A stretch of DNA of 64,000 nucleotides from Elusimicrobiales bacterium (GCA_050174915.1 JBFXJL010000002.1:325553-389552), one strand, 5' to 3'. Shown: positions 5 to 18,105, counted from the first letter of the stretch. Numbers and translations are program-made. Notes: generated from the letters alone by a model not told the origin.

Positions 5-3000
5 ATGCAGCCGGCCATACACCAGCTGCGCGTCAACCCGGCCCAGGTGGCCAAGGTCGCCTTCGGCAACGACCCCAGGTCCATGACCGCCGGCAAACTG
101 ACCGACAGGTTCGGCGAACTGCAGGTCTTTAAGGCGGAACTGCGGGACATGTTCGACAACCCGGCCGTCGCCACGGCCCCGGTGCAGGTGGCCCTGTCTA
201 CCCATACCCGCCAGCCCTCGCTGATCAACGACTCCTTCGCGTTCTCCACGGCCAGCGCGCTGTCCGGCGCCTTCCCGCCTGTGTTCGCCTCCACGGTCTC
301 CGCTATCCAGATCCCGCTGGACGGCTACACGGCCACTTTCTATTACCTCGACACCACCGCCTCTTCGGTCTACGCCTCGTCGATGACGCCGGTGCGGCCC
401 ATCGTCAAGGTGGAGGTGCCGGAGCGCGAGGGCTGGGCTTCTTCCACCCAGTCCGTGACCATCATGCCCGACCTGACCTATCGCGTGAATGTCAGCTACA
501 ACGCCGGGCAGGTACTCACGGCCGGCGCCACCTCGCAGATGTTCCAACTGTCGATAGAGGATCATTACGGCAATCCTACCCCGGTGGCCAGCGGCCAGGA
601 GGACGCCCTGGGCGCCGGTATAGCCTTCTCGCTGGCCTCCGACTCGGCCGGCCAAGTAAAGTTCTCCTCTCCGGACCCCGACGCCTTCGCCGCCCAGCCC
701 GGTTCGGCCAGAATGTTCCTCGGCCAAGCCACTACCAGCTTCTACCTGATAGACACCCTGGTTTCCGACCCAACGCACCAGCTGCTTATCAATACGACCC
801 AGTCCAAGGGTTGGCTGCCGGCCGTCTCTTCCTACACCGTCACCCCGGCCTCTCCGGACCATGTCCTCTTCTACACCCCGCAGCGCCGCCTGGTGGCCGG
901 CACCACGGTGCAGTACGCCGACTATACCACGGACCTTGCCACGCCTACCGTGGTCACAGTGGCTCTCAAGGACGCGTACGATAACAACACCACTACCAAT
1001 ACGCAGGTCACCGTGCGCCTGTCCGCCCTGCGCAACAGCACCTACGGCGGCATAGACCCGTCCACCGCCACCGTCTCTTCCAATCCCAGCTGGAAGCTGC
1101 TGCTGACCAACCCGCTTGACCTGGACATCCCGGCCGGCTACTCTTTCGCCAACTTCTATGTCTGGGACACGATAGTGGGCACGGCCGCCATCACGGCCAA
1201 CGCTTATATCTCCGCAGGCAATATCACCCTGCCCCAGGTTTCCCAGGACCAGTACATCACGCCCAGCACGGCCGCGTACTTCACCCTGCACCACACGTAC
1301 ACGATAGCCAGCCCGCTGCGCGTGCAGACCCCCGGTTATATAACGCTGCGCGCCCGCGACCAGTACGGCAACGTGGCAGCCGGCGACCCGGTGAACGGCC
1401 GGTACTACACCGGCAAGATCAACATGGTCACCAATTCCAAGGGGTCGGCCGACCTGCGCGACTATATCACCAACGCCACCGATTACACCTTCGTGCCGGC
1501 CGACCGCGGCGAACGCACCCTGATGCTTTACGACACGATGGTGGAGACGCTGCGTATCAACGTTACGGACTACCAGCGCCCCGGAGTCTTCGGCCACACT
1601 TCCGACAACGGCCGCGGCCTGCCGCAGGGCTCCAGCGCCGACCTGGTGCTGTCGGGCCTGGTGATCAACCCCAGGGACATGGCCCCCGAGGACCCGCTGC
1701 CCGTTTCCAAGACCTCTATCGGCATCAGCAAGAACGCCATCTACCAGGGCGACGGCGTGATAGCCGACATTCCCGCCCCCGTGCCCATGCTGCGCCTTAC
1801 GATGCAGACGCAGCCGGTGGGCTCGCCGCCCGCCTACCTCAAGTCGGTGCAGCTCAAGAGCTCCGGCACGCTGTCCTACTCCGACATCGTGGAGATCGGC
1901 ATGTACGCCGACAACCCGTCCTCCGGCCAGCTGGGCCTCTTCGACGGCGAGACCGCGCTGGGCGCCCCCCCGGTGGATATCTTCATGTCCAGCGGCACCT
2001 GGGACCCCGGCCTGATGGGCTGGAAGTTCGAGGACCTCAATACCAAGGTCTCCACCGCCGCCATCGTCTCCGACACGGCCCGCAACTTCTTCTTCGCGGT
2101 GCGCATGTCCACCGTGGCGGCCACCCCGCGCAGCTTCGCGGTGGCCCTGGACAACCCGTCGTTCGTGGTGCTCAGCTCCACGTTCGTGGGCGTCGCCTAC
2201 AACAACTTCCCGATCGTCACCGCCACCTCGCCGGTGCGCAACCAGCCCGCCACGGTGCTGGTCCAGGCCCGGGATATCGGCGCCTGGTGGCAGGCCGGCG
2301 TGGACGCGGGCCAGTACGATTACGTGGAGCAGGGCACCGAGCGCGCCGGCTTCCTGGCCATCAGCGCCTGGACCGACAATTTCATCGGCACGATCAAGTC
2401 GTTCAGGATCATCAAGACCGGCACCGGCTCCGGCCAGGACCTCAAGAGCGTGCGCCTGTTCCTCGACGACGGCGACGGGGAGTTCGGCCAGGCCATCGAT
2501 AAAGAGGTCACGGACCCGGCCAACCCGCCCACGTTCAACCCGGCCGACCCCGGCACCTATCTGCTGCCGCTCTACAACCCCGGGCTGGACGGCGCCGTCT
2601 CCATAAGCACCCGGACCTACTTCGTGGTCTACGAGTTCCAGCCCGACGCGGTCCCGAACATGACCCACGGCGCGCGCCTGGAAAACTCCGGCGTCAGCCT
2701 GATCGACGGCGTCGTGGGCGCCTTCACGCCGGTGGCCTCCTCCACCGTGCCGCTGTACGCCACCGCCGACCTGGTCAACCTGGTGGACGTTAACCGCGCG
2801 GCCCCGAACGACTTCAGCAAGCCCTCTTTCGTCACGCAGAACGACGTCAACAAGCCGGTGGCCCGCCTGACGATGAAGGTCACCGACACCATCGGCTCGG
2901 CGGTCTGGCGCGGCCTGAAGCTGGACCGCTGGGTGACCGCCTCCGAGAACGGCGGCACGGACGCCTGGAACATGGTCACCGACGTCAAGCGCATCAGCCT

Positions 3001-6000
3001 CTGGCACGATTCCACCGGCGACGGCCTGCTGCAGACCACCACCACCGTAAAAGACACCGAGGTGGTGCTGCTGGGCGCCAACACCCGCAACTTCCCCTAC
3101 GACACGCTCAAGGCGCCGCTGGTCTCCACCGACACGGTGATCCGCGTGACCGACATCCAGAAGTTCTTCCCGTCGGACAGCCCCTTCCCGATGGCGCCCG
3201 GCCGGCTGATCATCAACGACGCCCAGCCCGATCCCGCGCTCAAGGAAGTCGTCTACTACGCTTCCGTAGACGTGCTGACCAACTCTTTCGGCAACCTGAC
3301 GCGCGGCGCCGAGGGCACTACCCAGGTGGAGTGGTCCAGCGGCACCGTCATCTCGGGCCAGGCCGTGCTGCCGCTGATCGGCGACGGCACCAGCCTCGAC
3401 GGCCAGGCGATCTTCTCCGAGCCCCGCGACTATTTCATCACTTACGACATCGACCCGCTGGCCAACGTTTCCAACTTCTCCTACCTGGGCATGGCGATGC
3501 GCAGCACGGACTACTTCTATATCGAGGCGCCCAAACTGATGAGCCAGGCCAACGTGGGCGTGACGGCTCCGGGCAAGACGCTGTCGCTGGTGGGCCGCGT
3601 GAACGAGTACGCCGACTCGGTCATAGTCACGGCTTCGGACACTTTCACCGGGGATAACCTGCAGCAGCAGGCCGTCAACCAGCCTATCCTGGACTTCACC
3701 ATGAAGACGGACGTGGCCGACGCGATCTGGCGCTGGATGCTGGTCTACGCCACCGGCACCGCCGTCCGGGACGGCACCGCCGTGCCCGACGTGTCCGCCG
3801 TGAAGGTCTGGTACGACAAGGATAACAACGGCTTCCTGGGCGGCATCGACGAAGAGGTCGGCTCCGGCACCTTCGGCAACACGATCTACGGCCCGCTGGT
3901 GGCCAGGGTTGCGCTCTCCCAGGAGCAGCGCATCGTGACCTCGGAGAAGGCCTCGCTGGACAATACTTCCAGGCGCTACTTCCTGACCTACGATATCAGG
4001 GACTCCGCCATGCCCAACGACGCGCTGGGCAACCCCCGGTACCTGGGCGCCTACCTGAAGCCGGAGTCCTTCCCGCAGGGCAGCCCGAGCTTCGACGACG
4101 CGTCCAAGAACGCGCTGTCGCTGCCCAACAAGTTCTTCCCCGACGACTCCAACCTGACCTATGTCTCCAGGGTCCGGGAGATCATCTCTTCGCCCAGCAC
4201 CGTTACGGTGAATACCGAGCCGGTCTTCGCCTTCGAGGGCGGCTCCTCCTTCCCGAACCTGCGCCTCACGCAGGACGTGGTGAGCCCCGGCCCGATGGAC
4301 GCCGCCTGGCTGGTCACTTCCACCGCCGGCATCCCGTCCTCGGGTTACGCGATGGTGGACAACGAGATCGTGCAGTACGCCGGCACCGCCGCGGGCGCGC
4401 TGACCATGGTCACCCGCGGCGTCTTCAGCACGCCGGTGGTGAACCACTCCTCCGGCGCCGCCGTGGGCGGCATGGTGCGGCAGGGCTGGGACAATTATCC
4501 CTTGATGAAGATGACGCTGACCACGGCCGGCTACGGCGTGCGCTGGCGCGGCTTCCGGCTCTCGCGCATGCAGCCCTCGGGCCTCAACGGCTACGACTCC
4601 GACGTCAGCATGGTCAAGGTCTGGAAAGACAACGGCAACGGCGTCTTCGACCGCGACCCCGTGACCGGCATGAACACCTCCGACGTGCTGGTGGGCAGCG
4701 CCCGCTTCGGCGAGAACGACCCGGTAGGCAAGGCCACCGTCTACGTGGCCGACCCGGCCCTGGCCAACCAGGACTACGTCGTGGTCAGCGCTACCCCGAC
4801 CATGGTCTTCGTCACCATGGACATAGACCGGGCTTCCAGGTTCTCGCACCAGCTGCTGACGCCGCAGAACGATGTGCTGGGCGTCGAGGTGCCGTTCGAG
4901 AGCAACTTCCTCTTCGGGCCGGACAACTCGGGCCACGTCGCCGATTTCCTTAATCCCGCCGCCAGCGCCATGAACGTCATGATGCCCACGCTCAACGATG
5001 TCACCCTGGAGCCCGAGGACATCTCCCCGGTGGCCGCCGTGCAGAACGATAAGAACGTCGGCCTGCTGGCGCTGCACATGAAGGTGGACAAGACCTCGGC
5101 CCTGCTCGAGGCCGTCAAGCTGCGCCGCCTCGGCACCGCCGCGGATTCCGACATAGACCTTATCAAGGTCTGGCGGGACTCCAACGATAACTGCATCCTG
5201 GACTCCGTGGACACGGCCTCCACCACGGCCGGGCTGTATCCGAACCTGATGAGCTATGGCAACGAGGCCTATTCCTCCAGCACCATCAACGTGGTGCTCA
5301 AGACGCCTATAGTCATCACGACTTCCCCGTCCTGCGCCTTCATCAGCTATGACCTCTCCCAGTTCGCTATAGTGGGTTCCACCACGGCCCTGAACCTGGG
5401 CGGCGTCGCCGACCTGACTATCGGTATCCCCAACACGGTCACTATGACCACCTGGCCCGTCAACACGATGCCTATCAAGATCCAGGAGATAGCGTCCGAC
5501 GTCAGGCTGGGCGCCAACGACATGGCGGCCGCGCTGCTGCAGTCCGGCGGCGTAGGCCAGGCCCAGGTCGGCGTGCCCATGCTGCGCTTCAACCTGACCA
5601 CCGAAGCCGGCAACGCCCGCTGGAGCGCGGTCAAGGTACAGCGCACCGGCGCCTCCAACGACCCGAACGCGCCGTTCGGCAAGAACACGGACGTCAAGTT
5701 CGTGTCCATCTATCAGGACTCCAACCAGAACGACATCTTGGACGTCAACGACGTCAACATCTCGGAGGCCCGGACCGCGCTGGCCGAAGCGCTCTCGTCC
5801 ACGGCCACGGTGCCGTTCCAGCTGGTGCTGGACTCCACCGCGGGCTTCCCTTCCGCCGGCCGGCTTTATGTCAGCGACGCCGAGCTGATGACCTACAGCG
5901 GCAGCGGCCTCTCCGCCTCCGGCAAGCCGTACCTGAACGTCACCGTCCGGGGTGAGCGCCTGGGCGACTTCATAACGCCGCTGGTCAACCATCCTGCCGG

Positions 6001-8543: not shown

Positions 8544-8571
8544 TTGACAAACCTGTTTAATGTGCTATAAT
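8544..8571 (+). promoter_or_regulatory. Near-consensus sigma70-type promoter (TTGACA-N16-TATAAT, with TGc immediately 5' of the -10) upstream of the OM beta-barrel gene
   Basis: TTGACA lies at 8544-8549 and TATAAT at 8566-8571, preceded by 'tgc'. This implies a ~120-nt 5' leader containing two small GC hairpins (gccgg..ccggc at ~8631-8646 and cccgct..agcggg at ~8662-8678). Confidence 0.55.
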
Positions 8572-8696
8572 ATTAATGCCGTAAATCTGTAACGAGTTTG
8601 TAATGCAGTACTGGTACGATAATAGCAAAGCCGGTGAAAGCCGGCGGCGCAAAGCTAAGACCCGCTAAGTGAGCGGGGGTCAGGCTGCCGAAAACA

Positions 8697-10313
8697 ATGA
8701 AACGCAATCTTTGTATTGCCTTTGCCCCCTTGGCTATATGGGCTGAAACGAAGCGTGTAATACGCTTCAGCCTTGCCATGGGGTTTTTTATTGCCTTTTC
8801 GGCGGCGGACGCCCTGGCCCAGGGCGGCGGCCAGCCCGGCCAGTTCATGAGCTACGGCGCCGGCGCGCGCGGCCTCGGCATGGGCGGCGCCTTCTTCGCG
8901 GTGGCCGACGACGCCTCCGCCTCCTACTGGAACCCCGCGGCCCTCACCCTGCTCGAGCGCAAAGAGTTCACCGCCATGCAGGCCACCCTGTTCGAGCAGA
9001 CCACGCTGAACTTCTTCACCTACGCGCACCCCACCAGCACCAAGGGCACCTGGGCCATCAGCATGACCCAGCTGCAGTCCACCGGCTTCGAGAAGATCTC
9101 CATAACCGCCAACCCCGGCGGAGACGAGATCATGGAGATCAAGACGCTCGGCACCTTCGACAGCACCGAGCGCGCGCTGGCCTTCTCCTGGGGCCGCGAA
9201 GTCTCCGACAAGCTGGCCTTCGGCATCATGGCCAAGAACATCAGCCGCTCGCTGGACACCTCCGTGGACTCCTTCAACGCCATCGATATAGCGATGCTCA
9301 ACAAGTTCTCCAAGACCTACCGCGCCGCGGTCGGCATCCAGAACGTCTTCTCCATGGCCTCGGGCGACACCGAGGATAAGCTGCCCCTGACCCTGAAGTT
9401 CGGCCAGGCGCTCTCCCTGTTCAAGGGCAGCCTGCTGTTCGGCTTCGACCTGAACAAGCCCCAGGGATCCTCCATGAACTGGCGCTTCGGCGGCGAGTAC
9501 TGGCTGATGTACTGGGCCGCGCTGCGCTTCGGCGTGCAGGGCGCCCCCGAGATTCAGGAGGCCGACTTCGGCCTCGGCATCAAGTACAAGAACCTCGGTT
9601 TCGACGTGGCCCAGGGCGTGCACGCGCTGGGGTCCACCACCCGCTTCTCCGTGACCCTGCGGATGGGTCAGAGCAACAAGGCCAAGCACGACCGCGAGGT
9701 GCGCGAGCTGGTGCGCCAGGCCCTGCAGTACTTCAAGAGCGGCTACTTCACCCGCGCCATGGAGAAACTGCGCGCCGCCATGGACGCCGATCCCGGCAAC
9801 CCCGAGGTGCGCCGCATGGTCACCCGCCTGCAGGGCGCCATCGACTACGTGCCGGACGCCACCGGCGGCGACGAGGTCCCCACGCTGACCCGCCGCGGCA
9901 TCATCTCCTACGTGGACGGCAAGGACCTGAAGGCCTCCGTGAACGTGCTGCGCCACGCCTTCAACAAGGACCCGAAGAACGACCGCCTGCTCTCCCTGCT
10001 GAACATGGTGGAGAAGGAAGCCGGCGTGAGCGAGCTCACCCGCAAGCCCGAGGGCCCCGAAATCTTCACCTATATCGACCAGCGCACCTACGACGCCCGC
10101 GCGGCCATCTACGACGGCAAGTACGACCTGGCCATGAAGCGCGCCCAGGACATCCTGGACCTCGAGCCCAACAACGAGACCGCCCTCGAGATCATGGGCA
10201 GCGCGTTCTACCTGATGGACCAGAAAGACAAGGCCAAGGTCATCTGGGAAAAGGTCGTGGAGATCAACCCCAACAACACGATGGTCAAGAACTTCCTGCG
10301 CCAGGTGAAATAA
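8697..10313 (+). CDS. Outer-membrane beta-barrel protein (PorV/PorQ/FadL-like N-terminal signature) fused to C-terminal TPR repeats
   Basis: The N-terminus is signal-like. The motif 'YGAGARGLGMGGAFFAVADDASASYWNPAAL' is typical of PorV/PorQ/UPF0164-type barrels as I recall them. The body alternates beta-strand-like segments rich in G, F and Y. The C-terminal ~190 aa has TPR-like repeats ('ALQYFKSGYFTRAMEKLRAAMDADPGNPE', 'AIYDGKYDLAMKRAQDILDLEPNNETA'). The start codon is uncertain (8697 or the Met at ~8778). Confidence 0.7.
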   Translation: MKRNLCIAFAPLAIWAETKRVIRFSLAMGFFIAFSAADALAQGGGQPGQFMSYGAGARGLGMGGAFFAVADDASASYWNPAALTLLERKEFTAMQATLFEQTTLNFFTYAHPTSTKGTWAISMTQLQSTGFEKISITANPGGDEIMEIKTLGTFDSTERALAFSWGREVSDKLAFGIMAKNISRSLDTSVDSFNAIDIAMLNKFSKTYRAAVGIQNVFSMASGDTEDKLPLTLKFGQALSLFKGSLLFGFDLNKPQGSSMNWRFGGEYWLMYWAALRFGVQGAPEIQEADFGLGIKYKNLGFDVAQGVHALGSTTRFSVTLRMGQSNKAKHDREVRELVRQALQYFKSGYFTRAMEKLRAAMDADPGNPEVRRMVTRLQGAIDYVPDATGGDEVPTLTRRGIISYVDGKDLKASVNVLRHAFNKDPKNDRLLSLLNMVEKEAGVSELTRKPEGPEIFTYIDQRTYDARAAIYDGKYDLAMKRAQDILDLEPNNETALEIMGSAFYLMDQKDKAKVIWEKVVEINPNNTMVKNFLRQVK

Positions 10314-10733: not shown

Positions 10734-12680
10734 ATGAAAAGGTTTTTAGCCGCCCTAGCGCTCGTTGCGAGCCTGTGGACGCCCCGGGTATCTGCCCAGA
10801 GCGCCGCGCTCGACAATCCCATGATGGAGACCTCGCTGATGCAGAAGCAGGACTCCATGCGCCGCGAGGCGGAGACCAAGGTCAAGAAGGAGATCCTCGA
10901 CCCCATCCTCGGGGCCGACAAGTCCTTCGTGTTCGCCGACGTCGAGCTGGAGGTCATCTCCAAGAAGGCCGAGCAGAGCAAGGAAGGCCTGGGCGTGATG
11001 CAGAAGTACAAGGAGAAGGGCGCCAGCGACGAGGCCGCCGACACCGACTTCATCCTGCCCGGCATCCCCAAGCCCCGCTCCGTACTGGGCGGCGAGAACA
11101 AGCGCCCCGAGGCGGCCCAGGGCCAGCAGGCCCAGCAGGCCAAGGGCGTGCAGGAGATCCGCTACGGCCTCGAGACCGAGATCACCCGCTTCCAGCTGAC
11201 CGTCATCCACGACGAACAGCTCGCCCCGGCCTCCATCGCGCTGGCCCGCGAGCGCATAGACGATTTCCTGGTGCCCTACAAGATCCGCAAGACCGGCGCG
11301 CCCACTGTGGTGTTCAAGCCCACCAAGTTCAAGGCCGGCAACCCGCTCGACGACCTCAAGAAGCCGTCCGTCTACCTGCCCCTGCTTTACGCGCTGCTGT
11401 TCCTGCTGCTGCTGCTGTTCCTGTTCGGCCCGCTGTGGGGCTTCTTCCGCAAGTACATCAAGGCGCTGATGGCAAAGCCCGGCGCCGAGGTGAACATAGA
11501 GGACAAGCGCGAGGAGGGCGGGGGAGGCGGCGGCGAGGACGAGGGCAAGCAGGAGACCGAGGGTCACCAGAGCATAGACATGAACTTCCTTCAGAAGGAG
11601 GAGGAGAAGAAGGAAGACGAGGACGACCTTATGAAGAAATTCGAGCCTTTCACCTATTTGAACGAGGAGAACCTCAAGCGGCTGATCTACCTGTTCCTGC
11701 TCCGGAAGGAGGACCCGTGGGTCATCGCGGTGGTGCTGAGCTACCTCAAGCCCGACCTGAGCCGGCAGGCCCTCTCCATGCTGCCGGTGGAGATGCAGAG
11801 CCGCGTGGCGCTGGAGGCCCTGACCGTGCGCCAGGCCACCCGCGAGCAGATAGAGGCCATAGACAAGGATATCCGCGAGAACGTGGACTTCGTGATGGGC
11901 GGCATAGAGCGCCTGGTGAAGATGCTCGACGACTCCGACCCGGCCACCCGCAAGAACATCATAGAGTACCTCAAGACCCAGAAGCCCGACGTCTACGCCA
12001 AGGTGCGCCAGATCGTGCTGATGTTCGAGGACATCATCAATTTCGCCGACCGCGACATGCAGTCCATCATCCGCAACCTCAACAACGAGGACGTGGCGAA
12101 GGCGCTGGCCAAGGCCGACCCGGCCATCGTCAACAAGTTCTTCACCAACATGTCGCAGGGCGCCGTGAACTCCGTCAAGGAGATCATGGAGTACTCCGGC
12201 GAGGTCAGCCTGGCCCAGTCGGACGAGGCGCAGATGAAGATCCTGGACGCTATCAAGACGCTGGAGTCCGAGGGCAAGATCGCCTCGCGCGGCGGCAACT
12301 CGCAGGAAGTCTATATGATAGAAGGGGGAGAGATGTCCTCCGGCGACGAGCGCCGCAAGAAATTCGAGAGCCTGTCCGGTTCCGCCCCGGCCCCCGCCGC
12401 CAGCCCCACTCCGGAGCAGGCCGAGCAGGCCAGGCAGTACGCCGCGGCCGGCGCCAACATGTACAATCAGGGCCAGGTGCAGGAGAGCCTGCAGTACCTG
12501 GAATACGCTTCCTCTCTGAACCCCGGAGACGCCTCTACCTGGCAGTACCTGGGCGCGGCCTACTACGGCCTGCAGCGCGTGGACGAGGCGGTGGCCGCCT
12601 ACGAGAAGTACGCCACCCTGTCCGGCGACCCGGCCGCTTCCGAATGGCTGGCCGGCTTCAAAGCCAGCGTGGGTCGCTGA
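10734..12680 (+). CDS. Membrane-anchored FliG-like protein: signal peptide, ~190-aa periplasmic domain, one TM helix, acidic linker, FliG middle/C-terminal-like domains and a C-terminal TPR
   Basis: 'MKRFLAALALVASLWTPRVSAQ' looks like a signal peptide. The TM helix is 'VYLPLLYALLFLLLLLFLFGPLWGFF' followed by RKYIK (positive-inside). The segment 'LMFEDIINFADRDMQSIIRNLNNEDVAKALAKADPAIVNKFFTNMSQGAVNSVKEIMEYSGEVSLAQSDEAQMKILDAIKTLESEGKI' aligns by eye with the FliG C-terminal domain (MFxF motif and torque-helix region). The C-terminus has TPR-like repeats ('ASTWQYLGAAYYGLQRVDEAVAAYEKY'). Confidence 0.75.
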   Translation: MKRFLAALALVASLWTPRVSAQSAALDNPMMETSLMQKQDSMRREAETKVKKEILDPILGADKSFVFADVELEVISKKAEQSKEGLGVMQKYKEKGASDEAADTDFILPGIPKPRSVLGGENKRPEAAQGQQAQQAKGVQEIRYGLETEITRFQLTVIHDEQLAPASIALARERIDDFLVPYKIRKTGAPTVVFKPTKFKAGNPLDDLKKPSVYLPLLYALLFLLLLLFLFGPLWGFFRKYIKALMAKPGAEVNIEDKREEGGGGGGEDEGKQETEGHQSIDMNFLQKEEEKKEDEDDLMKKFEPFTYLNEENLKRLIYLFLLRKEDPWVIAVVLSYLKPDLSRQALSMLPVEMQSRVALEALTVRQATREQIEAIDKDIRENVDFVMGGIERLVKMLDDSDPATRKNIIEYLKTQKPDVYAKVRQIVLMFEDIINFADRDMQSIIRNLNNEDVAKALAKADPAIVNKFFTNMSQGAVNSVKEIMEYSGEVSLAQSDEAQMKILDAIKTLESEGKIASRGGNSQEVYMIEGGEMSSGDERRKKFESLSGSAPAPAASPTPEQAEQARQYAAAGANMYNQGQVQESLQYLEYASSLNPGDASTWQYLGAAYYGLQRVDEAVAAYEKYATLSGDPAASEWLAGFKASVGR

Positions 12681-12976: not shown

Positions 12977-15406
12977 ATGGCAGACGAGAAGAAAATACCC
13001 AAGATGCCCCCGCTTCCCCCGGGGATGCTCAAACCTGGTATGCCGCCGGCGCCTCCTGCCGGCAGGCCTCCTCTGCCGTCCATGCCTGGCATGCCGCAGG
13101 CCGGTTTTCCTTCCCTGCCCCAGGGCTTCGGCCAGCCGGCCGCCGCCCCCCAGCCCGCCGCCAAGGACGACGCCGAAGAGCGCCGCCTGCAGGAAGAAAA
13201 GGACAAGCTGGAGCGCAAGATCTCCGACATGGAGAAGCTGCTCTCGGCCGAGAAAGAGAAGGCGCTGCTCGCCACGCTCAAGAACCAGCAGGACGAGGCT
13301 CTCTCCTCCCGCGTGGAGTCTTCGCTTAAAGATATACAGGACAAAATGCGCCGCGACCGCCGCGACCACGAGGTCGAGGAAGAGCGCCTCACGCTGAAGT
13401 CAAAGATCAAAGAGATGGAAACCCGCCTCGCGCAGGAGCGCGAGACCTGGATGACCACGCTCAAGAACCAGATGTCCGAGCGCGAGGTGCAGGGCCGGGA
13501 CGTGGAAGGGCACTTCATTTACAGGCTCCAGGAGATGGAGCGCCGCTGGCTGGACGAAAAGGCCCAGTGGCAGAAAGAGATCACCTCCCGCGAGGAGACC
13601 ATCCGCTCGCTCAAGTCCGCCTCCGAGAAGCTGCGCGACACCGAGGACGAGCTGCGCAAGATCTCGCTGGAAAAGACGATGTCGGACCGCGAGGTCTCCA
13701 GGCTGCGCGACGACGTGGCCCGCGCCGAGCGCGAGAAGGCCTCGGTCGAGACCTATATCAAGATGATCCCCGAGAAGGAACGCGAGATAGCGGACCTCAG
13801 GAGCGAGAACATCTCCCTGCGCGGCCGCGAGGAGAAGGCCCGCCTCGAGGAGAAGCACAACGCCGAGAAACAGGCTTTCGAACTGGAGAAGATGCAGAAG
13901 GAGATAGGCCGCCTGCAGGCCGAGATCGGCGCCATCTCCGACCGCAAGAACGAGGAGAAGAACGAGGCCCTGCGCAAGCAGGCCGAGCGCTACGACGCCG
14001 CGCTGCTGGAGAAGGAGAAGGCCCTGGCCGACGTGAACGGCGAGAAGGTGCGCGCCATCTCCGAACTCGTCAAGATCAAAGGCTTCGTGTCCCGGGTGCA
14101 GGCCATCAACGCCGTGCTCGACAAGGAACGCGGCCAGCTGCGGCTCGAGAAGATGCAGCTCGCCCAGAACATGGCCGCGCAACTCGAAGAGATACGCCGC
14201 CAGAAGGCTGAACTGGACACCATCAAGGCCGCTCACCAGAGCGAGCTGGAAGCCCAGGCCACCGGCTACAAGGCCGAAATAGCCCGGGTGAAGAACGGCT
14301 ACGGGGCCGAACTGGCCGCCAGGCACGCCGAGGAACTGGCCGAGGCCTCCCGCAGGAACCAGGAGGAGCTGTCCAGGCTGGCCGCGGTGCATCAGGCCGA
14401 GCTGGCCAACGCCGCCTCTTCCCACCAGGCAGAGCTCGCCAGGCTGGAATCGGTACGCCGCGAGGAGGCTTCCAGAGCCGCCGCCGCCCACCAGGCGGAA
14501 CTCGCCAAGGTTTCCGCCGAGCGCCAGGAGGAGGTCTCCAGGATCTCCGACGAGCGCCAGGCCGAAGTCGCTAAAATATCCGCCGAAGCCCAGGCCGAGG
14601 TCGCCAGGATCTCCGCCGAGCGCCAGGCCGAGCTGGACGCCAAGGTCTCCCAGCTGCGCATGCAGTACGAGTCCTCCTCCGAAGAGGAGAAGGCCGCCGT
14701 GCGCAAGCAGCTCGAGACGGCCCACGCCGCCCAGCTGGGTACCGCCAGGGCGGAAGCCTCCGCCGCCATGGATTCGCTGGTCAGGCTGGAAGCCGAGAAC
14801 CGCCGCCTCGCCGCCGAGAGCGCCGTGTTCGAGAAGACCATAGCCGCCAGGACCAAGGATTTCGAGGACAGGCTGGTGCGCGCCGAGGCAGAGGCCAAGC
14901 GCCGCGACGAGCAGGCTTCCCGTGCCGAGGCCCAGCTCTCCGAGTCCCTCGCCCGCGCCGCCGAGGCCGCCAAGGCCGCCCAGGCCGTGGAGACGGAGCG
15001 CCAGCGCCTGTCGGCAGAGTACGCCGCCCTGCGCGAGAAATATTCAGTGATAGAATCCCGCAAAGCCGCCGAGGAAGCCGAACTGGCCCGCCTGACGGAG
15101 AGCTTCAAGGCCCAGGCCGAGAACCTTCGGCTGGAGAGCGAGAACCGCACCCGCTTCGAATCCGAGCTGCTGTTCCTCAAGCAGAAGCTGCAGCAGATGG
15201 AACTGCAGGCCCAGGAGACCGCCGCGCTGCTAGATGAGGAGCGCAACGCCGCCGCCGCGCAGGCCCAGGCCGCCGCCGACCAGGCCGCCGCCGACGCCGC
15301 CCGCCTGGCGGAGGCCTCCGCCGAACTGGAGAAATACCGCGCGCTCGAGGCTTCCTTCGCCGAGCGCCTGAAGTGGGCCCTCAAGGGGAAAAAACAGGAA
15401 GAGTGA
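12977..15406 (+). CDS. 809-aa protein with a proline-rich N-terminus followed by a very long coiled-coil containing 11-residue (hendecad) tandem repeats
   Basis: The N-terminus reads 'PPLPPGMLKPGMPPAPPAGRPPLPSMPGMPQAGFPSLPQGF'. The remainder is E/K/R/A/L/Q-rich with heptad or hendecad character and has no TM helix. Its codon usage resembles that of its neighbours. Confidence 0.8.
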   Translation: MADEKKIPKMPPLPPGMLKPGMPPAPPAGRPPLPSMPGMPQAGFPSLPQGFGQPAAAPQPAAKDDAEERRLQEEKDKLERKISDMEKLLSAEKEKALLATLKNQQDEALSSRVESSLKDIQDKMRRDRRDHEVEEERLTLKSKIKEMETRLAQERETWMTTLKNQMSEREVQGRDVEGHFIYRLQEMERRWLDEKAQWQKEITSREETIRSLKSASEKLRDTEDELRKISLEKTMSDREVSRLRDDVARAEREKASVETYIKMIPEKEREIADLRSENISLRGREEKARLEEKHNAEKQAFELEKMQKEIGRLQAEIGAISDRKNEEKNEALRKQAERYDAALLEKEKALADVNGEKVRAISELVKIKGFVSRVQAINAVLDKERGQLRLEKMQLAQNMAAQLEEIRRQKAELDTIKAAHQSELEAQATGYKAEIARVKNGYGAELAARHAEELAEASRRNQEELSRLAAVHQAELANAASSHQAELARLESVRREEASRAAAAHQAELAKVSAERQEEVSRISDERQAEVAKISAEAQAEVARISAERQAELDAKVSQLRMQYESSSEEEKAAVRKQLETAHAAQLGTARAEASAAMDSLVRLEAENRRLAAESAVFEKTIAARTKDFEDRLVRAEAEAKRRDEQASRAEAQLSESLARAAEAAKAAQAVETERQRLSAEYAALREKYSVIESRKAAEEAELARLTESFKAQAENLRLESENRTRFESELLFLKQKLQQMELQAQETAALLDEERNAAAAQAQAAADQAAADAARLAEASAELEKYRALEASFAERLKWALKGKKQEE
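14381..14644 (+). repeat. About eight tandem 33-nt (11-aa) repeats inside the coiled-coil gene
   Basis: The units are AAVHQAELANA / ASSHQAELARL / ESVRREEASRA / AAAHQAELAKV / SAERQEEVSRI / SDERQAEVAKI / SAEAQAEVARI / SAERQAELDAK. Confidence 0.8.
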
Positions 15407-15490: not shown

Positions 15491-15715
15491 ATGATCAAGC
15501 TAGAAAAACTCAACGGGGCGCTGGTGGTGGTGAACGCCGAACTCATAGAGAGCGTAGAGGCCGGGCCGGACACCGTGATAAACCTGGCCACCGGCAACCG
15601 GTACCTGGTGCGTAACCCGGTGGACGAGGTCGTGGCCCTGGTGGTGGAGTACAAAAGGAAGGTCTACGCCGAGCGAAAATGCGTGAATCCGATCGAGGGG
15701 CTGGAACGGAAATAG
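15491..15715 (+). CDS. flbD: Flagellar protein FlbD family (small stator-associated protein)
   Basis: The 74-aa product 'MIKLEKLNGALVVVNAELIESVEAGPDTVINLATGNRYLVRNPVDEVVALVVEYKRKV' matches the FlbD pattern (MI.L..LNG..F.LN..LIE.IE..PDT.I.L..G.K..V.ES..EV). The gene lies directly upstream of motA/motB. Confidence 0.8.
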   Translation: MIKLEKLNGALVVVNAELIESVEAGPDTVINLATGNRYLVRNPVDEVVALVVEYKRKVYAERKCVNPIEGLERK

Positions 15716-15731: not shown

Positions 15732-16520
15732 ATGGATATAGCTACATTCAGCGGCATCATAGTCTTCGGCGGCTTCGTATTCGCGGCCATCTATCTCGGA
15801 GAGGGCATACACGGGTTCAAGCCCTTCCTTAACGCCGAAGCTTTCCTTATCGTGATGGGCGGCACGTTCTGCGCGCTGCTGGTCAATTTCCCGCTCTCGT
15901 CGGTGATCAACTCCACGAAAGTGCTGAAAAAGGTGCTGACTACCAAGGGCGAGGATACCTCCAAGCTGGTGTCCACCTTCGTCTCGCTGTCGCAGAAGGC
16001 CAAGAAAGAGGGCTTCCTGGCGCTGCAGGGCGACGTGCAGACCATCGACAACGATTTCCTCAAGCGCGGCGTGCAGCTGGTCATCGACGGCGCCGACCAC
16101 GAGTTCATCCGCAACATGCTCGAGACCGAGATCGACTTCATCACGGAGCGCCACAAGGCCGGCCGCGAGATCTTTAACGCCCTGGGTACCTACGCCCCGG
16201 CCTTCGGCATCATCGGCACCGTGCTGGGCATGATCATGATGCTTTCCTCCATCGACGATGTGGCACAGGTGCCCCGCCGCATGGCCCTCGCCCTGGCCGC
16301 CGCGTTCTACGGTATGGGAGCCGGCTACTGGCTTTTCATGCCGATGGCCGGCAAGCTGAAGCACCGCTCCGAAGAGGAACTTTTCGTGAAAGAGATCATC
16401 ATCCGCGGCGTGCTGCTGCTGCAGAGCGGCGCCACGCCCAGCGTGGTGGAGGCCAACCTGAAAGCCTACCTCGAGCCCGGCAAGCGGAAGAACGTGGCGA
16501 AAGAGGGCGCCGCGGCTTAA
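15732..16520 (+). CDS. motA: MotA/PomA-family flagellar-type stator protein (proton channel A subunit)
   Basis: The 262-aa product has a 4-TM layout, a large cytoplasmic loop between TM2 and TM3, and 'YAPAFGIIGTVLGMIMML' and 'ALALAAAFYGMGAGYWLFMPMAGKL' motifs typical of MotA/PomA. An SD-like 'ggag' lies upstream. Confidence 0.85.
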   Translation: MDIATFSGIIVFGGFVFAAIYLGEGIHGFKPFLNAEAFLIVMGGTFCALLVNFPLSSVINSTKVLKKVLTTKGEDTSKLVSTFVSLSQKAKKEGFLALQGDVQTIDNDFLKRGVQLVIDGADHEFIRNMLETEIDFITERHKAGREIFNALGTYAPAFGIIGTVLGMIMMLSSIDDVAQVPRRMALALAAAFYGMGAGYWLFMPMAGKLKHRSEEELFVKEIIIRGVLLLQSGATPSVVEANLKAYLEPGKRKNVAKEGAAA

Positions 16521-16547: not shown

Positions 16548-17351
16548 ATGCGGAAAAGAGTCAAAGGCATGATCCCGGAGGACGACAGGCGGGTATCCCC
16601 GATGGGAGAGCCCGCGCCCCCGTTCATGGTCAACTATGCCGACCTCATGACGGAGCTGGTCTGCTTCTTTGTCATCCTTTACGCCCTGTCCGCCGCCCTG
16701 AACAAGGATATGCAGAAGGCCCAGCAGGAAGTTCAGGAGATGATCAAAGAGGGCAAGATGGCCGGCCAGGTGCAGATAGACAAGGAAGGCATGCGCATCA
16801 CGCTCGAGGAACAGAGCGATATGGCTTTCTTCGAGAGCGGCAAGGCCGAACTGACCGACCAGATGCGCACCCAGATGGACAAGCTGTCCCCGGTGCTGCT
16901 GAAGCTGGCCGAGAAGCACGACATCGTGGTGGAAGGCCACACCGATAATATCCCTATAGCCACCCAGCAGTTCGCCTCCAACTGGGAGCTGTCCACCGCG
17001 CGCGCCACCAGCGTGGTGAAATCCATGCTTGAGAGTAAGTTCGCGCCCAAGCGGCTGTCGGCCGTGGGCTACGGCGAATACCACCCCAAAGTCCCCAACA
17101 CTTCGAGCGTCAACCGCAAGACCAACCGCCGCGTGGTGTTCTTCATCAAGAACAATCCTTATCCCGACCCGACCGGTCCCCCGGGACCGGACGGCAAGCC
17201 CCTTCCGGCCGCTCCGGAGGGTGGCGCGCCGGCCGTGCCTGAGCAGGCTCCGGCCGCTCCGGAGGGCGCCGCCGAACTTCCGGTTGAGGCGGTCCCCGCC
17301 CCGGAGACGCCCTCCCCGGCCGGAGACGCGCCCGCGGAAGACGGGCAGTAA
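16548..17351 (+). CDS. motB: MotB-family stator protein (OmpA-like peptidoglycan-binding domain) with a Pro/Ala-rich C-terminal tail
   Basis: 'NYADLMTELVCFFVILY' carries the conserved TM-proximal Asp. The OmpA-like core reads 'VVEGHTDNIPI..FASNWELSTARATSVV...AVGYGEYHP...NRRVVF'. The start could instead be the ATG at 16569. Confidence 0.85.
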   Translation: MRKRVKGMIPEDDRRVSPMGEPAPPFMVNYADLMTELVCFFVILYALSAALNKDMQKAQQEVQEMIKEGKMAGQVQIDKEGMRITLEEQSDMAFFESGKAELTDQMRTQMDKLSPVLLKLAEKHDIVVEGHTDNIPIATQQFASNWELSTARATSVVKSMLESKFAPKRLSAVGYGEYHPKVPNTSSVNRKTNRRVVFFIKNNPYPDPTGPPGPDGKPLPAAPEGGAPAVPEQAPAAPEGAAELPVEAVPAPETPSPAGDAPAEDGQ

Positions 17352-17364
17352 CAGGAAGGAATTT

Positions 17365-18105
17365 ATGAAGAGAGAACTGATCCGCATACTGGCCGTCACC
17401 CTGCTGGCCGCGCCGCTGGCCGGCTGCTTCGGCGGCATGAGGCATTTGAAGGTGGTGGATTACACCGACTCGCGCGTGGGCGACCTGTCGCTGACCAAGA
17501 AGGTCACCGGCAAGCGTGAGTTCCTGTTCTTCTCCACCACCAAGATGAGCGTCTTCCTGGACGGCAACATCCAGGGCGTGATCACCGATTACCAGGGCAA
17601 CCCCATAGAGGGCGTCACCGTGAAGGTCATGCCCGATACCGCCCGGCAGGGCGCCGGCGGCGGGGACGGCGGAGACGTGTTTGCGTTGGATGAGAACGCC
17701 GGCGCGGCCATCAACCTCTCCTTCGCGCCCGGCATCACGGACACCATGGGCCTGTACAAGATACATTTCTCGCTGCCGGTCACCGACGAGGAGGTGGACG
17801 TGCGCGGCAAACTGGTCTACAACCCGGGCTGGGACCAGCAGCGCCTGAACCTGGGCAAGGCCTACGAGCCCCAGATGAAGGAATCCCCTTTTCGCCTCTA
17901 TTTCAATATCGACACCGGTTTCCTGGCCTTCGCCGAGGGCGTGCGCAAGGTCATAGTGCAGCCCGTGGGCGAGGGCAAGGGGCGCATGGAAAACCTGCCG
18001 GGCGCACAGGCCCCGCAGCCCGTTGCCAGGCCCGACGCAACAGCTCCCGCCGGGGGCGCGCAGGCCGAGGAAGATCTTTTCAAGGGCTTCGACTTCGGTC
18101 AATAA
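17365..18105 (+). CDS. Lipoprotein with a carboxypeptidase-regulatory-like (CarboxypepD_reg) beta-sandwich segment
   Basis: The start was re-set inside track ORF 17029..18105 to the ATG at 17365, which follows the SD 'aggaagga'. The lipobox is 'LLAAPLAGC'. 'GVITDYQGNPIEGVTVKV' is CarboxypepD_reg-like. Confidence 0.7.
   Translation: MKRELIRILAVTLLAAPLAGCFGGMRHLKVVDYTDSRVGDLSLTKKVTGKREFLFFSTTKMSVFLDGNIQGVITDYQGNPIEGVTVKVMPDTARQGAGGGDGGDVFALDENAGAAINLSFAPGITDTMGLYKIHFSLPVTDEEVDVRGKLVYNPGWDQQRLNLGKAYEPQMKESPFRLYFNIDTGFLAFAEGVRKVIVQPVGEGKGRMENLPGAQAPQPVARPDATAPAGGAQAEEDLFKGFDFGQ

What the first reader, a model, noticed from the sequence alone, without database searches (positions are those of the whole stretch)
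5..18105. Stand-alone FliG-like / FlbD-MotA-MotB module linked to a giant T9SS-tail adhesin and an OM barrel: candidate non-flagellar rotary or force-transducing apparatus
Seen in sequence:
- Eight co-directional ORFs sit in one block that ends at a clean terminator (18123-18151).
- (1) A >=2818-aa surface protein with an FN3 domain and a FlgD-Ig / Por-secretion-tail-like C-terminal domain.
- (2) An OM beta-barrel with a PorV/PorQ-like N-terminal signature fused to TPR repeats.
- (3) A signal-peptide- and TM-anchored FliG-like protein fused to TPR.
- (4) An 809-aa Pro-rich plus coiled-coil protein.
- (5-7) FlbD, MotA and MotB.
- (8) A CarboxypepD_reg-like lipoprotein.
- No fliF, fliM/N, flhA/B, fliI, rod/hook/filament or chemotaxis genes occur anywhere in the 64 kb.

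Established knowledge:
- MotAB stators exert torque on the FliG C-terminal domain.
- FlbD is a small stator-associated flagellar protein usually found next to motAB.
- FlgD-Ig-like C-terminal tails mark T9SS cargo.
- In Flavobacterium the giant adhesin SprB is propelled by the GldLM proton-driven rotary motor.

Inference: this block could encode a minimal rotor (FliG-like) and stator (MotAB/FlbD) device. Such a device might move, secrete or tension the giant surface protein through the barrel-TPR protein. That would be an alternative to GldLM-type motors. I am not aware of such an architecture being described.
Basis: partly seen in the sequence, partly recalled or inferred. Interest (0 to 1): 0.9.

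Follow-up and report, generated by a model that had tools for sequence, protein, structure and literature searches.

The report
Flagellar-type motor without a flagellum
Free-living Elusimicrobia carry a conserved, c-di-GMP-riboswitch-controlled operon that joins a fused FliF-FliG rotor protein and MotAB stator to an outer-membrane PorV-like barrel, usually beside a 12,000-17,000-residue surface protein; it looks like a flagellar motor core re-used for a non-flagellar job that nobody has described.

Summary
The window comes from an Elusimicrobiales genome.

**What the tools added**
- **Rotor gene.** The "FliG-like" gene is a natural FliF-FliG fusion. It reads: signal peptide, periplasmic FliF RBM3/collar-like domain, one membrane helix, FliG middle and C domains, then TPR. 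It has no FliG N domain.
- **Stator.** FlbD, MotA and MotB are of the true flagellar stator type, with plug, peptidoglycan-binding domain and channel Asp.
- **Outer-membrane part.** The barrel-TPR protein passes NCBIfam's PorV/PorQ family cut-off.
- **Giant gene.** It is cut by the window edge. In a close relative its product is 12,759 residues.
- **Regulation.** A c-di-GMP-I riboswitch with its own promoter and a terminator hairpin sits between the giant gene and the PorV-like gene. It was found in all 16 related loci tested plus the window.

**Conservation.** The riboswitch, the PorV/Q-TPR gene and the FliF-FliG-TPR gene form the invariant core across about 40 loci. MotAB, a Pro-rich coiled-coil protein and a giant gene accompany it in most.

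**Literature.** One preprint notes that non-flagellated Elusimicrobiota keep motAB, flbD and fliG and calls their role enigmatic. The architecture itself is not described in the papers I could search.

**Best reading.** A non-flagellar, ion-driven rotor-stator machine that spans the envelope. Rotation and output are inferred, not shown.

The parts
1..8461 (+). 3' end of a giant surface-protein gene: the last 2818 codons, with the ORF open at the window edge. C-terminal FlgD-Ig / T9SS-CTD-like domain at residues about 2733-2803.
   Evidence: FlgD_ig 30.1 bits > GA 27 on the C-terminal 218 aa. TIGR04183 20 bits < 23, and weak matches to the PorZ and PorU C-terminal domains. The product is 12,759 aa in L031/L032, 14,454 aa in L035 and 17,141 aa in L039. 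The C-terminal FlgD_ig is above GA in orthologues L012, L021, L022 and L027.
8544..8571 (+). Sigma-70-type promoter: TTGACA, 16 nt, TG-extended TATAAT (12 of 12 matches).
8614..8692 (+). c-di-GMP-I (GEMM-I) riboswitch aptamer.
   Evidence: Rfam RF01051, 58.2 bits (gathering 35), E 1.3e-9. Found at the same place in 16 of 16 related loci.
8700..8791 (+). Expression platform: a small conserved hairpin, then a long terminator-like hairpin (about 8724-8785) followed by U6. It overlaps the first codons of the PorV-like gene.
   Evidence: MFE fold. Consensus fold of 10 loci: 26 pairs, 7 with compensatory changes.
8697..10313 (+). Outer-membrane PorV/PorQ-family beta-barrel (residues about 49-322) fused to a C-terminal, presumably periplasmic, TPR domain (about 337-536).
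   Evidence: NF033709, 114.5 bits >= 90. TPR families. The ATG at 8697 is conserved in 10 of 10 loci. Orthologues in divergent loci score 104-132 bits.
10734..12680 (+). Rotor protein, a natural FliF-FliG fusion plus TPR. Layout by residue: signal peptide 1-21; FliF RBM3/collar-like domain 37-213; membrane helix 213-239; acidic linker; FliG_M 322-384; FliG_C 412-516; TPR 577-635.
10842..11372 (+). Periplasmic FliF RBM3 / beta-collar-like ring-building domain of the rotor protein.
   Evidence: The AF2 core has alpha-beta-beta-alpha-beta topology. The top 18 Foldseek PDB hits are all FliF MS-ring RBM3/collar, followed by SpoIIIAG and PrgK. hhalign against a true FliF gives 97.3% probability, E 2.7e-11, onto FliF residues 243-432. 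PF08345 is above GA in 6 divergent family members.
11697..12281 (+). Cytoplasmic FliG middle and C-terminal (torque) domains.
12977..15406 (+). 809-aa protein: Pro-rich N-terminus, long coiled coil, and a conserved C-terminal amphipathic motif RLKWA[IL]KGKK. No signal peptide.
   Evidence: No family match. The C-terminal motif is conserved. Homologues occur in L035, L038, L039 and L040.
15491..15715 (+). FlbD (SwrD-type small stator-associated protein).
   Evidence: PF06289, E 5.4e-24.
15732..16520 (+). MotA/PomA-type stator A subunit (flagellar clade).
16548..17351 (+). MotB-type stator B subunit: channel Asp in 'NYADLMT', plug, and OmpA-like peptidoglycan-binding domain.
17365..18105 (+). 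Lipoprotein (lipobox LAGC), all-beta, family unknown. Conserved C-terminal EEDLFKGFDFG motif.
18123..18151 (+). Intrinsic terminator that closes the operon.
   Evidence: Read directly from the sequence.

Best explanation
The locus encodes a flagellum-derived but non-flagellar, ion-driven rotor-stator machine that spans the cell envelope. Its expression is gated by c-di-GMP.

Shown
- The 648-aa protein joins a periplasmic FliF RBM3/collar-like domain, one membrane helix and cytoplasmic FliG-M/C domains in a single chain.
- FlbD, MotA and MotB are of the flagellar stator type.
- A PorV/PorQ-family barrel with a TPR tail is always encoded immediately upstream of the fusion gene, behind a c-di-GMP-I riboswitch.

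Inferred
- The fusion protein assembles, as FliF RBM3 does, into a ring of about 30-35 subunits. This ring carries a FliG ring on its cytoplasmic face and needs no export gate, rod or FliM/N.
- Peptidoglycan-anchored MotA5B2 units, with FlbD, use the ion gradient to push on FliG-C and turn the ring.
- The periplasmic collar is coupled through the TPR tail to the PorV/Q-like barrel.
- By analogy with PorV-PorU and PorQ-PorZ, that barrel holds the C-terminal Ig-like domain of the neighbouring 12,000-17,000-residue surface protein.
- The motor's work therefore moves, spins or tensions that fibre, giving surface motility or dynamic adhesion.
- The membrane-tethered coiled-coil protein and the lipoprotein are accessory scaffold parts.

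My estimates
- Rotor-stator torque generation: about 0.65.
- Output through the PorV-like barrel: about 0.5.
- Output on the giant protein specifically: about 0.35.
For: - FliG-MC homology.
- FliF RBM3/collar homology from three independent lines. Foldseek's top 18 PDB hits are all FliF. hhalign gives 97.3% probability, E 2.7e-11, against a true FliF. PF08345 is above its cut-off in six divergent relatives.
- The topology fits: signal peptide, then a membrane helix followed by a K/R-rich stretch.
- The predicted collar insertion and the membrane helix are the most conserved segments of the N-terminal half.
- Engineered FliF-FliG fusions form 34/35-mer rings, and the Salmonella fusion is functional (PMC11481574).
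- The stator looks intact. MotA aligns over its full length to MotA/PomA at E 1e-47 to 1e-49. MotB keeps its plug, OmpA domain and channel Asp. The R90-equivalent is always K or R, and the E98-equivalent is E or Q.
- MotA is 84-91% identical across species whose MnmA is about 75% identical, which indicates purifying selection.
- The PorV/Q-TPR gene sits directly upstream of the fusion gene in every locus seen, and passes the PorV/PorQ cut-off wherever it was scored, including relatives only 25-45% identical in the N-terminal region.
- The riboswitch is present in 16 of 16 loci.
- A giant gene with a FlgD-Ig/CTD-like end lies immediately upstream in the great majority of loci.
- In L037, CTD-bearing proteins are encoded in pairs with PorV genes.
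- Elusimicrobiota with these genes are reported to lack flagellar structural genes.
Against: - No experiment or structure shows a ring, rotation or any contact between the parts.
- The FliG torque helix has lost three of the five classical charged residues (R281 to G, D289 to I, R297 to S). Only the D288 equivalent is kept, as E.
- The FliM-binding EHPQ motif reads EDPW.
- There is no rod-like shaft to carry torque through the peptidoglycan.
- The collar-to-TPR and barrel-to-CTD contacts are pure inference.
- In L037 and L039 no motAB lies within 10 kb of the fusion gene.
- In L038 no giant gene is adjacent.
- A paralogous giant gene lies elsewhere without a PorV neighbour (L034).
- I could not census the whole genome for flagellar or T9SS genes.
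Confidence: 0.5

Rival explanations
1. Secretion or attachment motor. The MotAB/FliF-FliG unit supplies energy, as PorLM/GldLM do in the T9SS, to export or anchor proteins that carry a C-terminal Ig-like sorting domain onto the PorV/Q-like barrel. It would not move them once they are on the surface.
For: - A PorV/PorQ family member is the invariant partner.
- The giant protein has a CTD-like end, with weak matches to the PorZ/PorU C-terminal domains and to TIGR04183.
- In L037 the operon lies beside CTD-cargo plus PorV gene pairs, one of them under its own c-di-GMP riboswitch.
Against: - No SprA/Sov, PorU, or GldK/N-like gene is in any locus seen.
- The CTD match is below the T9SS cut-offs.
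- A single OM barrel of about 270 residues is an unlikely conduit for a 12,000-residue protein.
- This reading still needs the same unproven periplasmic coupling.
Confidence: 0.2
2. Non-rotary envelope anchor or mechanosensor. The FliF-like ring and the PorV-TPR barrel form a static trans-envelope tether for a giant adhesin. MotAB would act only as a peptidoglycan-anchored, load-sensing or gating element, possibly feeding back on c-di-GMP-controlled surface behaviour.
For: - Three classical FliG torque-helix charges and the FliM-binding motif are lost.
- Some variants have no motAB within 10 kb.
- Regulation by c-di-GMP is typical of adhesion systems.
- Two GGDEF genes lie in the window.
Against: - MotA, the MotB plug, the channel Asp and FlbD are all strongly conserved. 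That is hard to explain without ion-coupled work.
- The FliG-C domain as a whole is well conserved.
Confidence: 0.15
3. An ordinary part of a canonical flagellum whose other genes lie elsewhere in the genome.
For: - FliG-MC, FlbD, MotA and MotB are all bona fide flagellar families.
- A few Elusimicrobiota do have complete flagellar gene sets.
- I could not census this genome.
Against: - The fusion lacks FliG-N, FliF RBM1/2 and the first FliF membrane helix, so it cannot house an export gate.
- The operon partners are a PorV-like barrel, a coiled-coil protein and a lipoprotein, not flagellar genes.
- No FliF, FliH, FliI or FliJ relative occurs in 756 kb around 39 loci plus the window.
- The literature reports these genes in genomes without flagellar structural genes.
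Confidence: 0.05
4. A decaying relic of a lost flagellum with no present function.
For: It is flagellar gene content in lineages reported to be non-flagellated.
Against: - All ORFs are intact in about 40 loci.
- MotA is 84-91% identical and the PorV-like protein 76-97% identical across species.
- A riboswitch and attenuator are conserved with compensatory base changes.
- The family is kept at 25-45% identity with the same architecture.
Confidence: 0.03

Closest known systems
Bacterial flagellar motor core (FliF MS-ring, FliG, MotAB/PomAB stator, FlbD/SwrD)
   Same: The parts are homologous: FliF RBM3/collar, FliG middle and C domains, flagellar-clade MotA/MotB with plug and peptidoglycan-binding domain, and FlbD. 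The flbD-motA-motB order matches Firmicutes- and spirochaete-type flagellar operons (own knowledge). Engineered FliF-FliG fusions form rings and the Salmonella fusion works.
   Different: - FliF and FliG are one polypeptide. It lacks FliF TM1 (replaced by a signal peptide), RBM1, RBM2, the FliF C-tail and FliG-N, and it has a C-terminal TPR added.
- No FliM/N, export apparatus, rod, hook or filament genes are nearby.
- The FliG charge ridge and the EHPQ motif are altered.
- The partners are a PorV-like barrel, a coiled-coil protein and a giant surface protein.
- The operon is under a c-di-GMP riboswitch.
T9SS / Bacteroidota gliding machinery (GldLM or PorLM motor, PorV/PorQ, SprB adhesin)
   Same: The overall logic is similar: an ion-driven inner-membrane motor, a PorV/PorQ-family outer-membrane barrel, and a very large surface adhesin with a C-terminal Ig-like domain. 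In Flavobacterium the motor propels the adhesin SprB (PMC8986121, listed; otherwise own knowledge).
   Different: - The motor is MotAB plus a FliF-FliG ring, not GldL5M2 with a periplasmic GldM shaft.
- No SprA, PorU or GldK/N was seen.
- The barrel carries a TPR tail.
- The CTD is below the T9SS cut-offs.
- The phylum is Elusimicrobiota, where no T9SS has been described (own knowledge).
Myxococcus Agl-Glt gliding complex
   Same: A MotAB-superfamily motor powers a trans-envelope complex for surface motility. Long coiled-coil cytoplasmic proteins (AglZ) and MglA/MglB polarity control are involved (own knowledge). One variant locus (L037) has an MglB/Roadblock-like gene after the coiled-coil gene.
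   Different: AglRQS is TolQR-like, without a FliG partner, plug or torque interface. No Glt homologues are present here.
SpoIIIAG and injectisome SctJ/PrgK rings
   Same: These are RBM-type ring-building domains used outside the flagellum. SpoIIIAG has an RBM3-like fold with a collar insertion, and it appears directly after FliF in the fold search.
   Different: Those rings are static channel scaffolds with no FliG domain and no stator.
Zorya (ZorAB) anti-phage system
   Same: It has a MotAB-like stator plus a long cytoplasmic coiled coil.
   Different: No ZorA, ZorC or ZorD match was found. Only a generic MotB-to-ZorB similarity appears. MotA here has the normal 262-aa flagellar architecture.

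Membership tests
Canonical flagellar motor | FliG with N, middle and C domains that reaches the equivalog score | tested here: not met
   TIGR00207 scores 116.9 bits against a cut-off of 226.7. Only profile positions 124-337 are matched. A true FliG aligns only through its residues 129-360.
Canonical flagellar motor | A separate FliF with two membrane helices and RBM1, RBM2 and RBM3 | tested here: not met
   Only an RBM3/collar-like domain and the second membrane helix are present, and they are fused to FliG. No other FliF relative occurs in 756 kb.
Canonical flagellar motor | FliM/FliN, export apparatus, rod, hook and filament genes | not testable with these tools
   They are absent from the 64-kb window and from the flanks of 39 loci. 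A genome-wide census was not possible. The literature reports absence in most free-living Elusimicrobiota.
Flagellar-clade stator (MotAB/PomAB) | A subunit with the cytoplasmic torque interface; B subunit with channel Asp, plug and OmpA-like domain | tested here: met
   MotA aligns over its full length to MotA/PomA structures at E 7e-49 to 4e-47. MotB_plug E 2.5e-10 and OmpA E 5.5e-18. The Asp is kept in all loci. NCBIfam equivalog cut-offs are not reached: 236 bits against 340-394.
Flagellar rotor-stator interface | Charged pairs MotA R90/E98 with FliG D288-D289/R281 | tested here: inconclusive
   On MotA, the R90 equivalent is always K or R, and the E98 equivalent is E in 17 loci and Q in 10. 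On FliG, D288 is E, but R281 is G, D289 is I and R297 is S or T.
FliF / YscJ ring-building family (PF08345) | RBM3-type domain recognised by profile or fold | tested here: met
   The window protein has no Pfam hit at E <= 10. Six relatives score 24-37 bits, above GA 23.8, over the whole profile. hhalign gives 97.3% probability. The top 18 Foldseek hits are FliF.
T9SS | PorV/PorQ-family outer-membrane barrel | tested here: met
   NF033709 scores 114.5 bits against a cut-off of 90. The PorV and PorQ equivalog models are far below cut-off: 35.5 of 250 and 47 of 220.
T9SS | Cargo C-terminal sorting domain (TIGR04183 / PF18962) | tested here: inconclusive
   TIGR04183 scores 20 bits against 23. PF18962 E 0.03, and FlgD_ig 30.1 bits against 27.
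T9SS | GldL/GldM (PorL/PorM) motor, GldK/N ring, SprA translocon, PorU sortase | tested here: not met
   No such family was found among the window proteins or in the called genes of the related loci. A genome-wide check was not possible.
c-di-GMP-I riboswitch (RF01051) | Covariance-model score at or above the gathering threshold, in a 5' leader | tested here: met
   58.2 bits against 35, with all model positions matched. Found in 16 of 16 related loci. Six of those score best as the GGC variant RF03167. Ligand specificity was not tested.
Zorya | ZorA with a long tail, plus ZorC/ZorD or ZorE | tested here: not met
   In PADLOC only MotB matches ZorB models. Nothing matches for the other six proteins.

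The most novel reading that the evidence does not exclude
This would be a previously unrecognised kind of rotary organelle. A flagellar-type rotor-stator, with no type III export gate, rod, hook or filament, would turn an outer-membrane barrel that holds a single 12,000-17,000-residue protein fibre. That would give Elusimicrobia a c-di-GMP-gated form of surface motility or a spinning adhesin. A related reading is that the RBM3-FliG ring plus stator is a free-standing module of the kind from which flagella could have been built.
Probability: 0.25. Interest if true: 0.95.

Novelty: new variant of a known kind. Interest (0 to 1): 0.85.

Why it matters
**For the flagellar field.** Flagellar-clade stators and FliG are treated as hallmarks of the flagellum. 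Here they persist under strong selection across a phylum reported to be largely non-flagellated. They are fused to a minimal FliF ring domain and wired to outer-membrane and giant surface proteins. If the machine turns, three things follow:
- the rotor-stator core can work without the export apparatus and the axial structure;
- it would be a new route from ion gradient to cell-surface work, alongside GldLM and AglRQS;
- it would be a natural minimal rotor for structural and evolutionary study.

**For Elusimicrobia biology.**
- It gives a first functional context for some of the huge, uncharacterised proteins in which Elusimicrobiota are enriched.
- It may explain how magnetotactic Elusimicrobiota without flagella could move.

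**For regulation.** The riboswitch link makes the operon's regulation directly testable in vitro.

Tried and rejected
- **Exact-sequence look-ups.** Look-ups of the window's own PorV-like protein and of P0001 found nothing. P0003 worked.
- **Homologue search with the giant fragment.** It returned only 12 mostly partial proteins. It did not give a full-length gene or its upstream context.
- **L034.** It turned out to be a paralogous giant gene followed by a HEAT-repeat gene, not an orthologous locus.
- **Co-variation idea.** I considered whether MotA E98 to Q is compensated by FliG R281 to G. I rejected it because E is the majority state in the family while G is universal.
- **Lipoprotein.** The AF2 model was too poor to use (pLDDT 44.5). 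Its profile finds nothing in the PDB.
- **Coiled-coil protein.** It has no informative family or PDB match.
- **Family profile against PDB sequences.** The search was swamped by TPR hits and did not surface FliF. A local hhalign run replaced it.
- **Zorya.** Rejected.
- **Riboswitch logic.** Whether c-di-GMP switches the operon on or off could not be decided from the folds.
- **Preprint supplement.** It holds no searchable gene table.
- **Wasted search.** One literature search was lost to a wrong setting.
- **Groundwater Elusimicrobia paper.** It does not discuss motility genes.

Full report
**1. Observation check**

The eight co-directional ORFs exist as described. Their third-position GC is 0.82-0.93, against about 65% GC overall.

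| Coordinates | Family evidence |
|---|---|
| 10734-12680 | FliG_M E 5.7e-11; FliG_C E 6.9e-26; TPR |
| 15491-15715 | FlbD E 5.4e-24 |
| 15732-16520 | MotA_ExbB E 1.2e-28 |
| 16548-17351 | MotB_plug and OmpA |
| 8697-10313 | NCBIfam PorV/PorQ family, 114.5 bits vs cut-off 90; TPR tail |
| C-terminus of ORF1 | FlgD_ig, 30.1 bits vs GA 27 when scored alone |

- The terminator at 18123-18151 can be read in the sequence.
- The other roughly 30 genes of the window are housekeeping. They include mnmA, ddl, pdxA, surA, a class A PBP, mfd, alaS, IDH, two-component systems and two GGDEF genes. None is flagellar or chemotactic.
- Weaker points: FN3 is not recovered by Pfam, and CarboxypepD_reg on the lipoprotein is only E 0.016.

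**2. Organism and conservation**

- The FliG-like protein is 100% identical to a protein of an NCBI "Elusimicrobiales bacterium" MAG. Its 120 best relatives (57-100% identity) share one architecture. Every named one is from Elusimicrobia.
- One scan of the species-representative genome collection gave 29 Elusimicrobia loci.
- tblastn shows the order giant gene, PorV-like, FliG-like, coiled coil, FlbD, MotA, MotB, lipoprotein in every locus long enough. Most are followed by mnmA and ddl.
- MotA is 84-91% identical and the PorV-like protein 76-97% identical across these species, whereas MnmA is mostly 75-80%. The coiled-coil protein drifts fastest, at 43-97%.

**3. The rotor gene is a natural FliF-FliG fusion**

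Residues 304-526 align with T. maritima FliG middle and C domains at E about 7e-32. The FliG equivalog model is matched only from position 124 onward, so there is no FliG N domain.

Upstream of that lie, in order:
- a signal peptide;
- a domain of about 190 residues;
- a nearly invariant membrane helix followed by basic residues;
- an acidic linker.

An AlphaFold model of the N-terminal domain has an alpha-beta-beta-alpha-beta core (pLDDT about 85). A long insertion between the two long strands is poorly modelled. Three lines of evidence tie this domain to FliF:
- **Fold search.** Foldseek against the PDB returns FliF MS-ring RBM3/collar structures as its top 18 hits. The best E is 9e-6 and the others are 3e-3 to 4e-2, with probability mostly 0.9-1.0. 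SpoIIIAG and PrgK follow.
- **Exhaustive HMMER search.** A search with residues 22-300 found 68 family representatives in 1.84 billion proteins, about 30 of them full length. Nine of ten divergent members repeat the FliG_M, FliG_C and TPR architecture. Six of them hit Pfam YscJ_FliF_C above its cut-off over the whole profile.
- **Profile comparison.** hhalign of the family's N-terminal profile against a genuine FliF (Synergistales, L030) gives 97.3% probability, E 2.7e-11. It aligns residues 37-213 to FliF 243-432, the RBM3/collar region just before FliF's second membrane helix.

The insertion that AlphaFold leaves disordered holds many of the invariant residues. That is what one expects of a collar that folds only in the assembled ring; this last point is inference.

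Engineered FliF-FliG fusions form 34/35-mer rings, and the Salmonella fusion is reported to be functional (PMC11481574).

**4. The stator**

- The MotA homologue aligns end to end with C. sporogenes MotA, Vibrio PomA and B. subtilis MotA at E 7e-49 to 1e-46. In the scheme of PMC12505986 it therefore belongs with the flagellar ion transporters.
- MotB keeps the channel Asp, the plug and the OmpA-like domain.
- Across loci the MotA R90 equivalent is always K or R. The E98 equivalent is E in 17 loci and Q in 10.
- On FliG, only the D288 equivalent survives, as E. R281 is G, D289 is I and R297 is S or T. The FliM-binding EHPQ motif reads EDPW.
- The interface is therefore modified, not simply conserved.

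**5. Outer-membrane part and giant protein**

- The window holds only the last 2818 codons of the giant gene. The called product is 12,759 aa in a relative whose FliG-like protein is 98% identical. It is 14,454 aa in L035 and 17,141 aa in L039.
- Its C-terminal Ig-like domain is above the FlgD_ig cut-off in orthologues. It matches, weakly, the retained C-terminal domains of PorZ and PorU and the T9SS type A sorting domain, at 20 bits against 23.
- In the T9SS, PorV and PorQ hold PorU and PorZ by those domains (own knowledge). The neighbouring PorV/Q-like barrel is therefore a plausible anchor for the giant protein; this is inference.
- In L037, other CTD-bearing proteins are encoded in pairs with PorV genes. 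That fits the same logic.
- Elusimicrobiota are known to be enriched in proteins of 10,000 aa or more with unknown function.

**6.

- A perfect sigma-70-type promoter lies at 8544-8571.
- It is followed by a c-di-GMP-I riboswitch aptamer at 8614-8692: 58.2 bits against gathering 35, E 1.3e-9.
- Next come a conserved small hairpin and a long terminator hairpin with a U run. These overlap the first codons of the PorV-like gene. The consensus fold of ten loci has 26 pairs, seven of them with compensatory changes.
- The aptamer was found at the same position in 16 of 16 related loci, including the most divergent.
- The giant gene is thus a separate upstream unit. The genes from PorV-like to the lipoprotein form a c-di-GMP-gated operon.
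- I could not decide whether the ligand turns the operon on or off.

**7. Accessory parts**

- **Coiled-coil protein (809 aa).** It has a Pro-rich N-terminus, no signal peptide and a conserved amphipathic C-terminal motif. In one relative that motif is replaced by a membrane helix. Homologues follow the fusion gene in L035, L038, L039 and L040.
- **Lipoprotein.** It is conserved in L038, but in L035 a second MotB-like OmpA protein takes its place.
- Neither protein has an informative match.

**8. What is invariant**

| Locus | Context |
|---|---|
| L035 | Full set with a 14,454-aa giant |
| L038 | Full operon, no adjacent giant gene |
| L040 | PorV-TPR, fusion, MotA, MotB, then three very large genes downstream |
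| L039 | Giant, PorV-like, fusion, two long coiled-coil genes; no motAB within 10 kb |
| L037 | Response regulator, PorV-TPR, fusion, coiled coil, MglB-like; no motAB within 10 kb |

- The PorV-like gene exceeds its family cut-off in all divergent loci scored, at 104-132 bits.
- The constant core is riboswitch, PorV/Q-TPR and FliF-FliG-TPR, normally with the coiled-coil protein. The stator and giant genes are usual but not obligatory neighbours.

**9. Is there a flagellum?**

- I could not census the genome.
- A preprint on magnetotactic Elusimicrobiota reports that only a few genomes of the phylum have a full flagellar set. It adds that most free-living ones lack structural flagellar genes yet keep motAB, flbD and fliG, whose role it calls unclear and enigmatic.
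- Locally, canonical FliF, FliH, FliI and FliJ queries find nothing in 756 kb around 39 loci plus the window. A canonical FliG matches only the M and C domains of the fusion.
- Without RBM1/2 and FliG-N, the fusion cannot hold an export gate or bind a separate FliF (inference from the known structure).

**10. Mechanism and rivals**

The most economical reading is a flagellum-derived rotor-stator. A ring of the fusion protein would be turned by peptidoglycan-anchored MotAB/FlbD units. Its periplasmic collar would be linked through the TPR tail to the PorV/Q-like barrel, and through the barrel to the giant surface protein.

- The homologies, topology, synteny and riboswitch are shown.
- Ring assembly, rotation and all inter-protein contacts are inferred.

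My estimates are 0.65 for torque generation, 0.5 for output through the barrel and 0.35 for action on the giant protein.

| Rival reading | Confidence |
|---|---|
| T9SS-like secretion or attachment motor | 0.2 |
| Static anchor or mechanosensor | 0.15 |
| Part of a canonical flagellum | 0.05 |
| Functionless relic | 0.03 |

**11. Comparison and novelty**

- By homology, the closest system is the flagellar motor core.
- By logic, the closest is the T9SS gliding machinery, with Agl-Glt as a further analogue. Zorya is excluded.
- The locus fails the membership tests for a canonical flagellum and for a T9SS. It passes those for a flagellar-type stator, a FliF-type ring domain, the PorV/PorQ family and the c-di-GMP-I riboswitch.
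- No paper in the searchable library joins PorV with FliG and MotA in this sense, or describes a natural FliF-FliG fusion.
- I file it as a new variant of a known kind, the ion-driven rotor-stator machines. There is a substantial chance that it is a new kind of organelle.

Noticed in passing
window 10314-10733: There is a 421-nt GC-rich spacer between the PorV-like and fusion genes, with a weak promoter-like site at 10691-10718. The spacer ranges from 37 nt (L035) to about 470 nt (L001) in relatives. No Rfam match. Its origin is unexplained.
   Followed up: partly
window 11370-11480 (fusion protein residues about 213-250): The membrane helix and its juxtamembrane stretch (VYLPLLYALLFLLLLLFLFGPLWGFFRKYIKALMAKPGAEVNI) are nearly invariant across 33 relatives. 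That is more conserved than the flanking domains. It suggests a specific contact within the membrane.
   Followed up: no
window 35826-37172 and 37169-38407: Two overlapping tandem GGDEF (diguanylate cyclase) genes, one with a GAF domain, lie 18 kb downstream of the c-di-GMP riboswitch operon.
   Followed up: no
L037 5485-5568 (-) and 980-5327: In a divergent relative, a second c-di-GMP riboswitch precedes an operon that encodes a CTD-bearing S8 peptidase and a PorV gene. A Big_5/CTD protein next to it is paired with another PorV gene. An MglB/Roadblock-like gene follows the coiled-coil gene.
   Followed up: partly
window 1-8461: The giant protein fragment has no detectable internal repeats by BLASTP. 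It does carry a recurring motif, h-x-h-W-x-D-x(2-4)-[DN]-G, about every 180-270 residues (at 816, 997, 1266, 1537, 2165 and others). This suggests very divergent Ca-binding-like modules. Cysteine content is 0.2%.
   Followed up: partly
P0255 cluster / P0055 (MAG RIFCSPHIGHO2_02_FULL_61_10): One Elusimicrobia MAG holds two divergent paralogues of the FliF-FliG-TPR protein, so some genomes may carry more than one copy of the system. One family member sits on a 4.9-kb contig binned as 'Thermoprotei archaeon', which is probably a binning error.
   Followed up: no
window 29326-33621: The Mfd (transcription-repair coupling factor) homologue is 1431 aa. That is roughly 250-300 residues longer than typical Mfd (own knowledge), and its first recognised domain starts only at residue about 506.
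   Followed up: no
window 20413-22266 (-): A 617-aa ORF with good coding statistics and no Pfam match. It is conserved at the same position, after ddl, in close relatives (L031-L033).
   Followed up: no
window 34844-35194 and 54152-54223: A tmRNA gene (127.8 bits) and a tRNA gene. Both are ordinary.
   Followed up: no
L012, L021, L028, L029, L037, L038 riboswitches: Six of the orthologous aptamers score best as the c-di-GMP-I-GGC variant (RF03167) rather than RF01051. Ligand specificity across the family may not be uniform.
   Followed up: no
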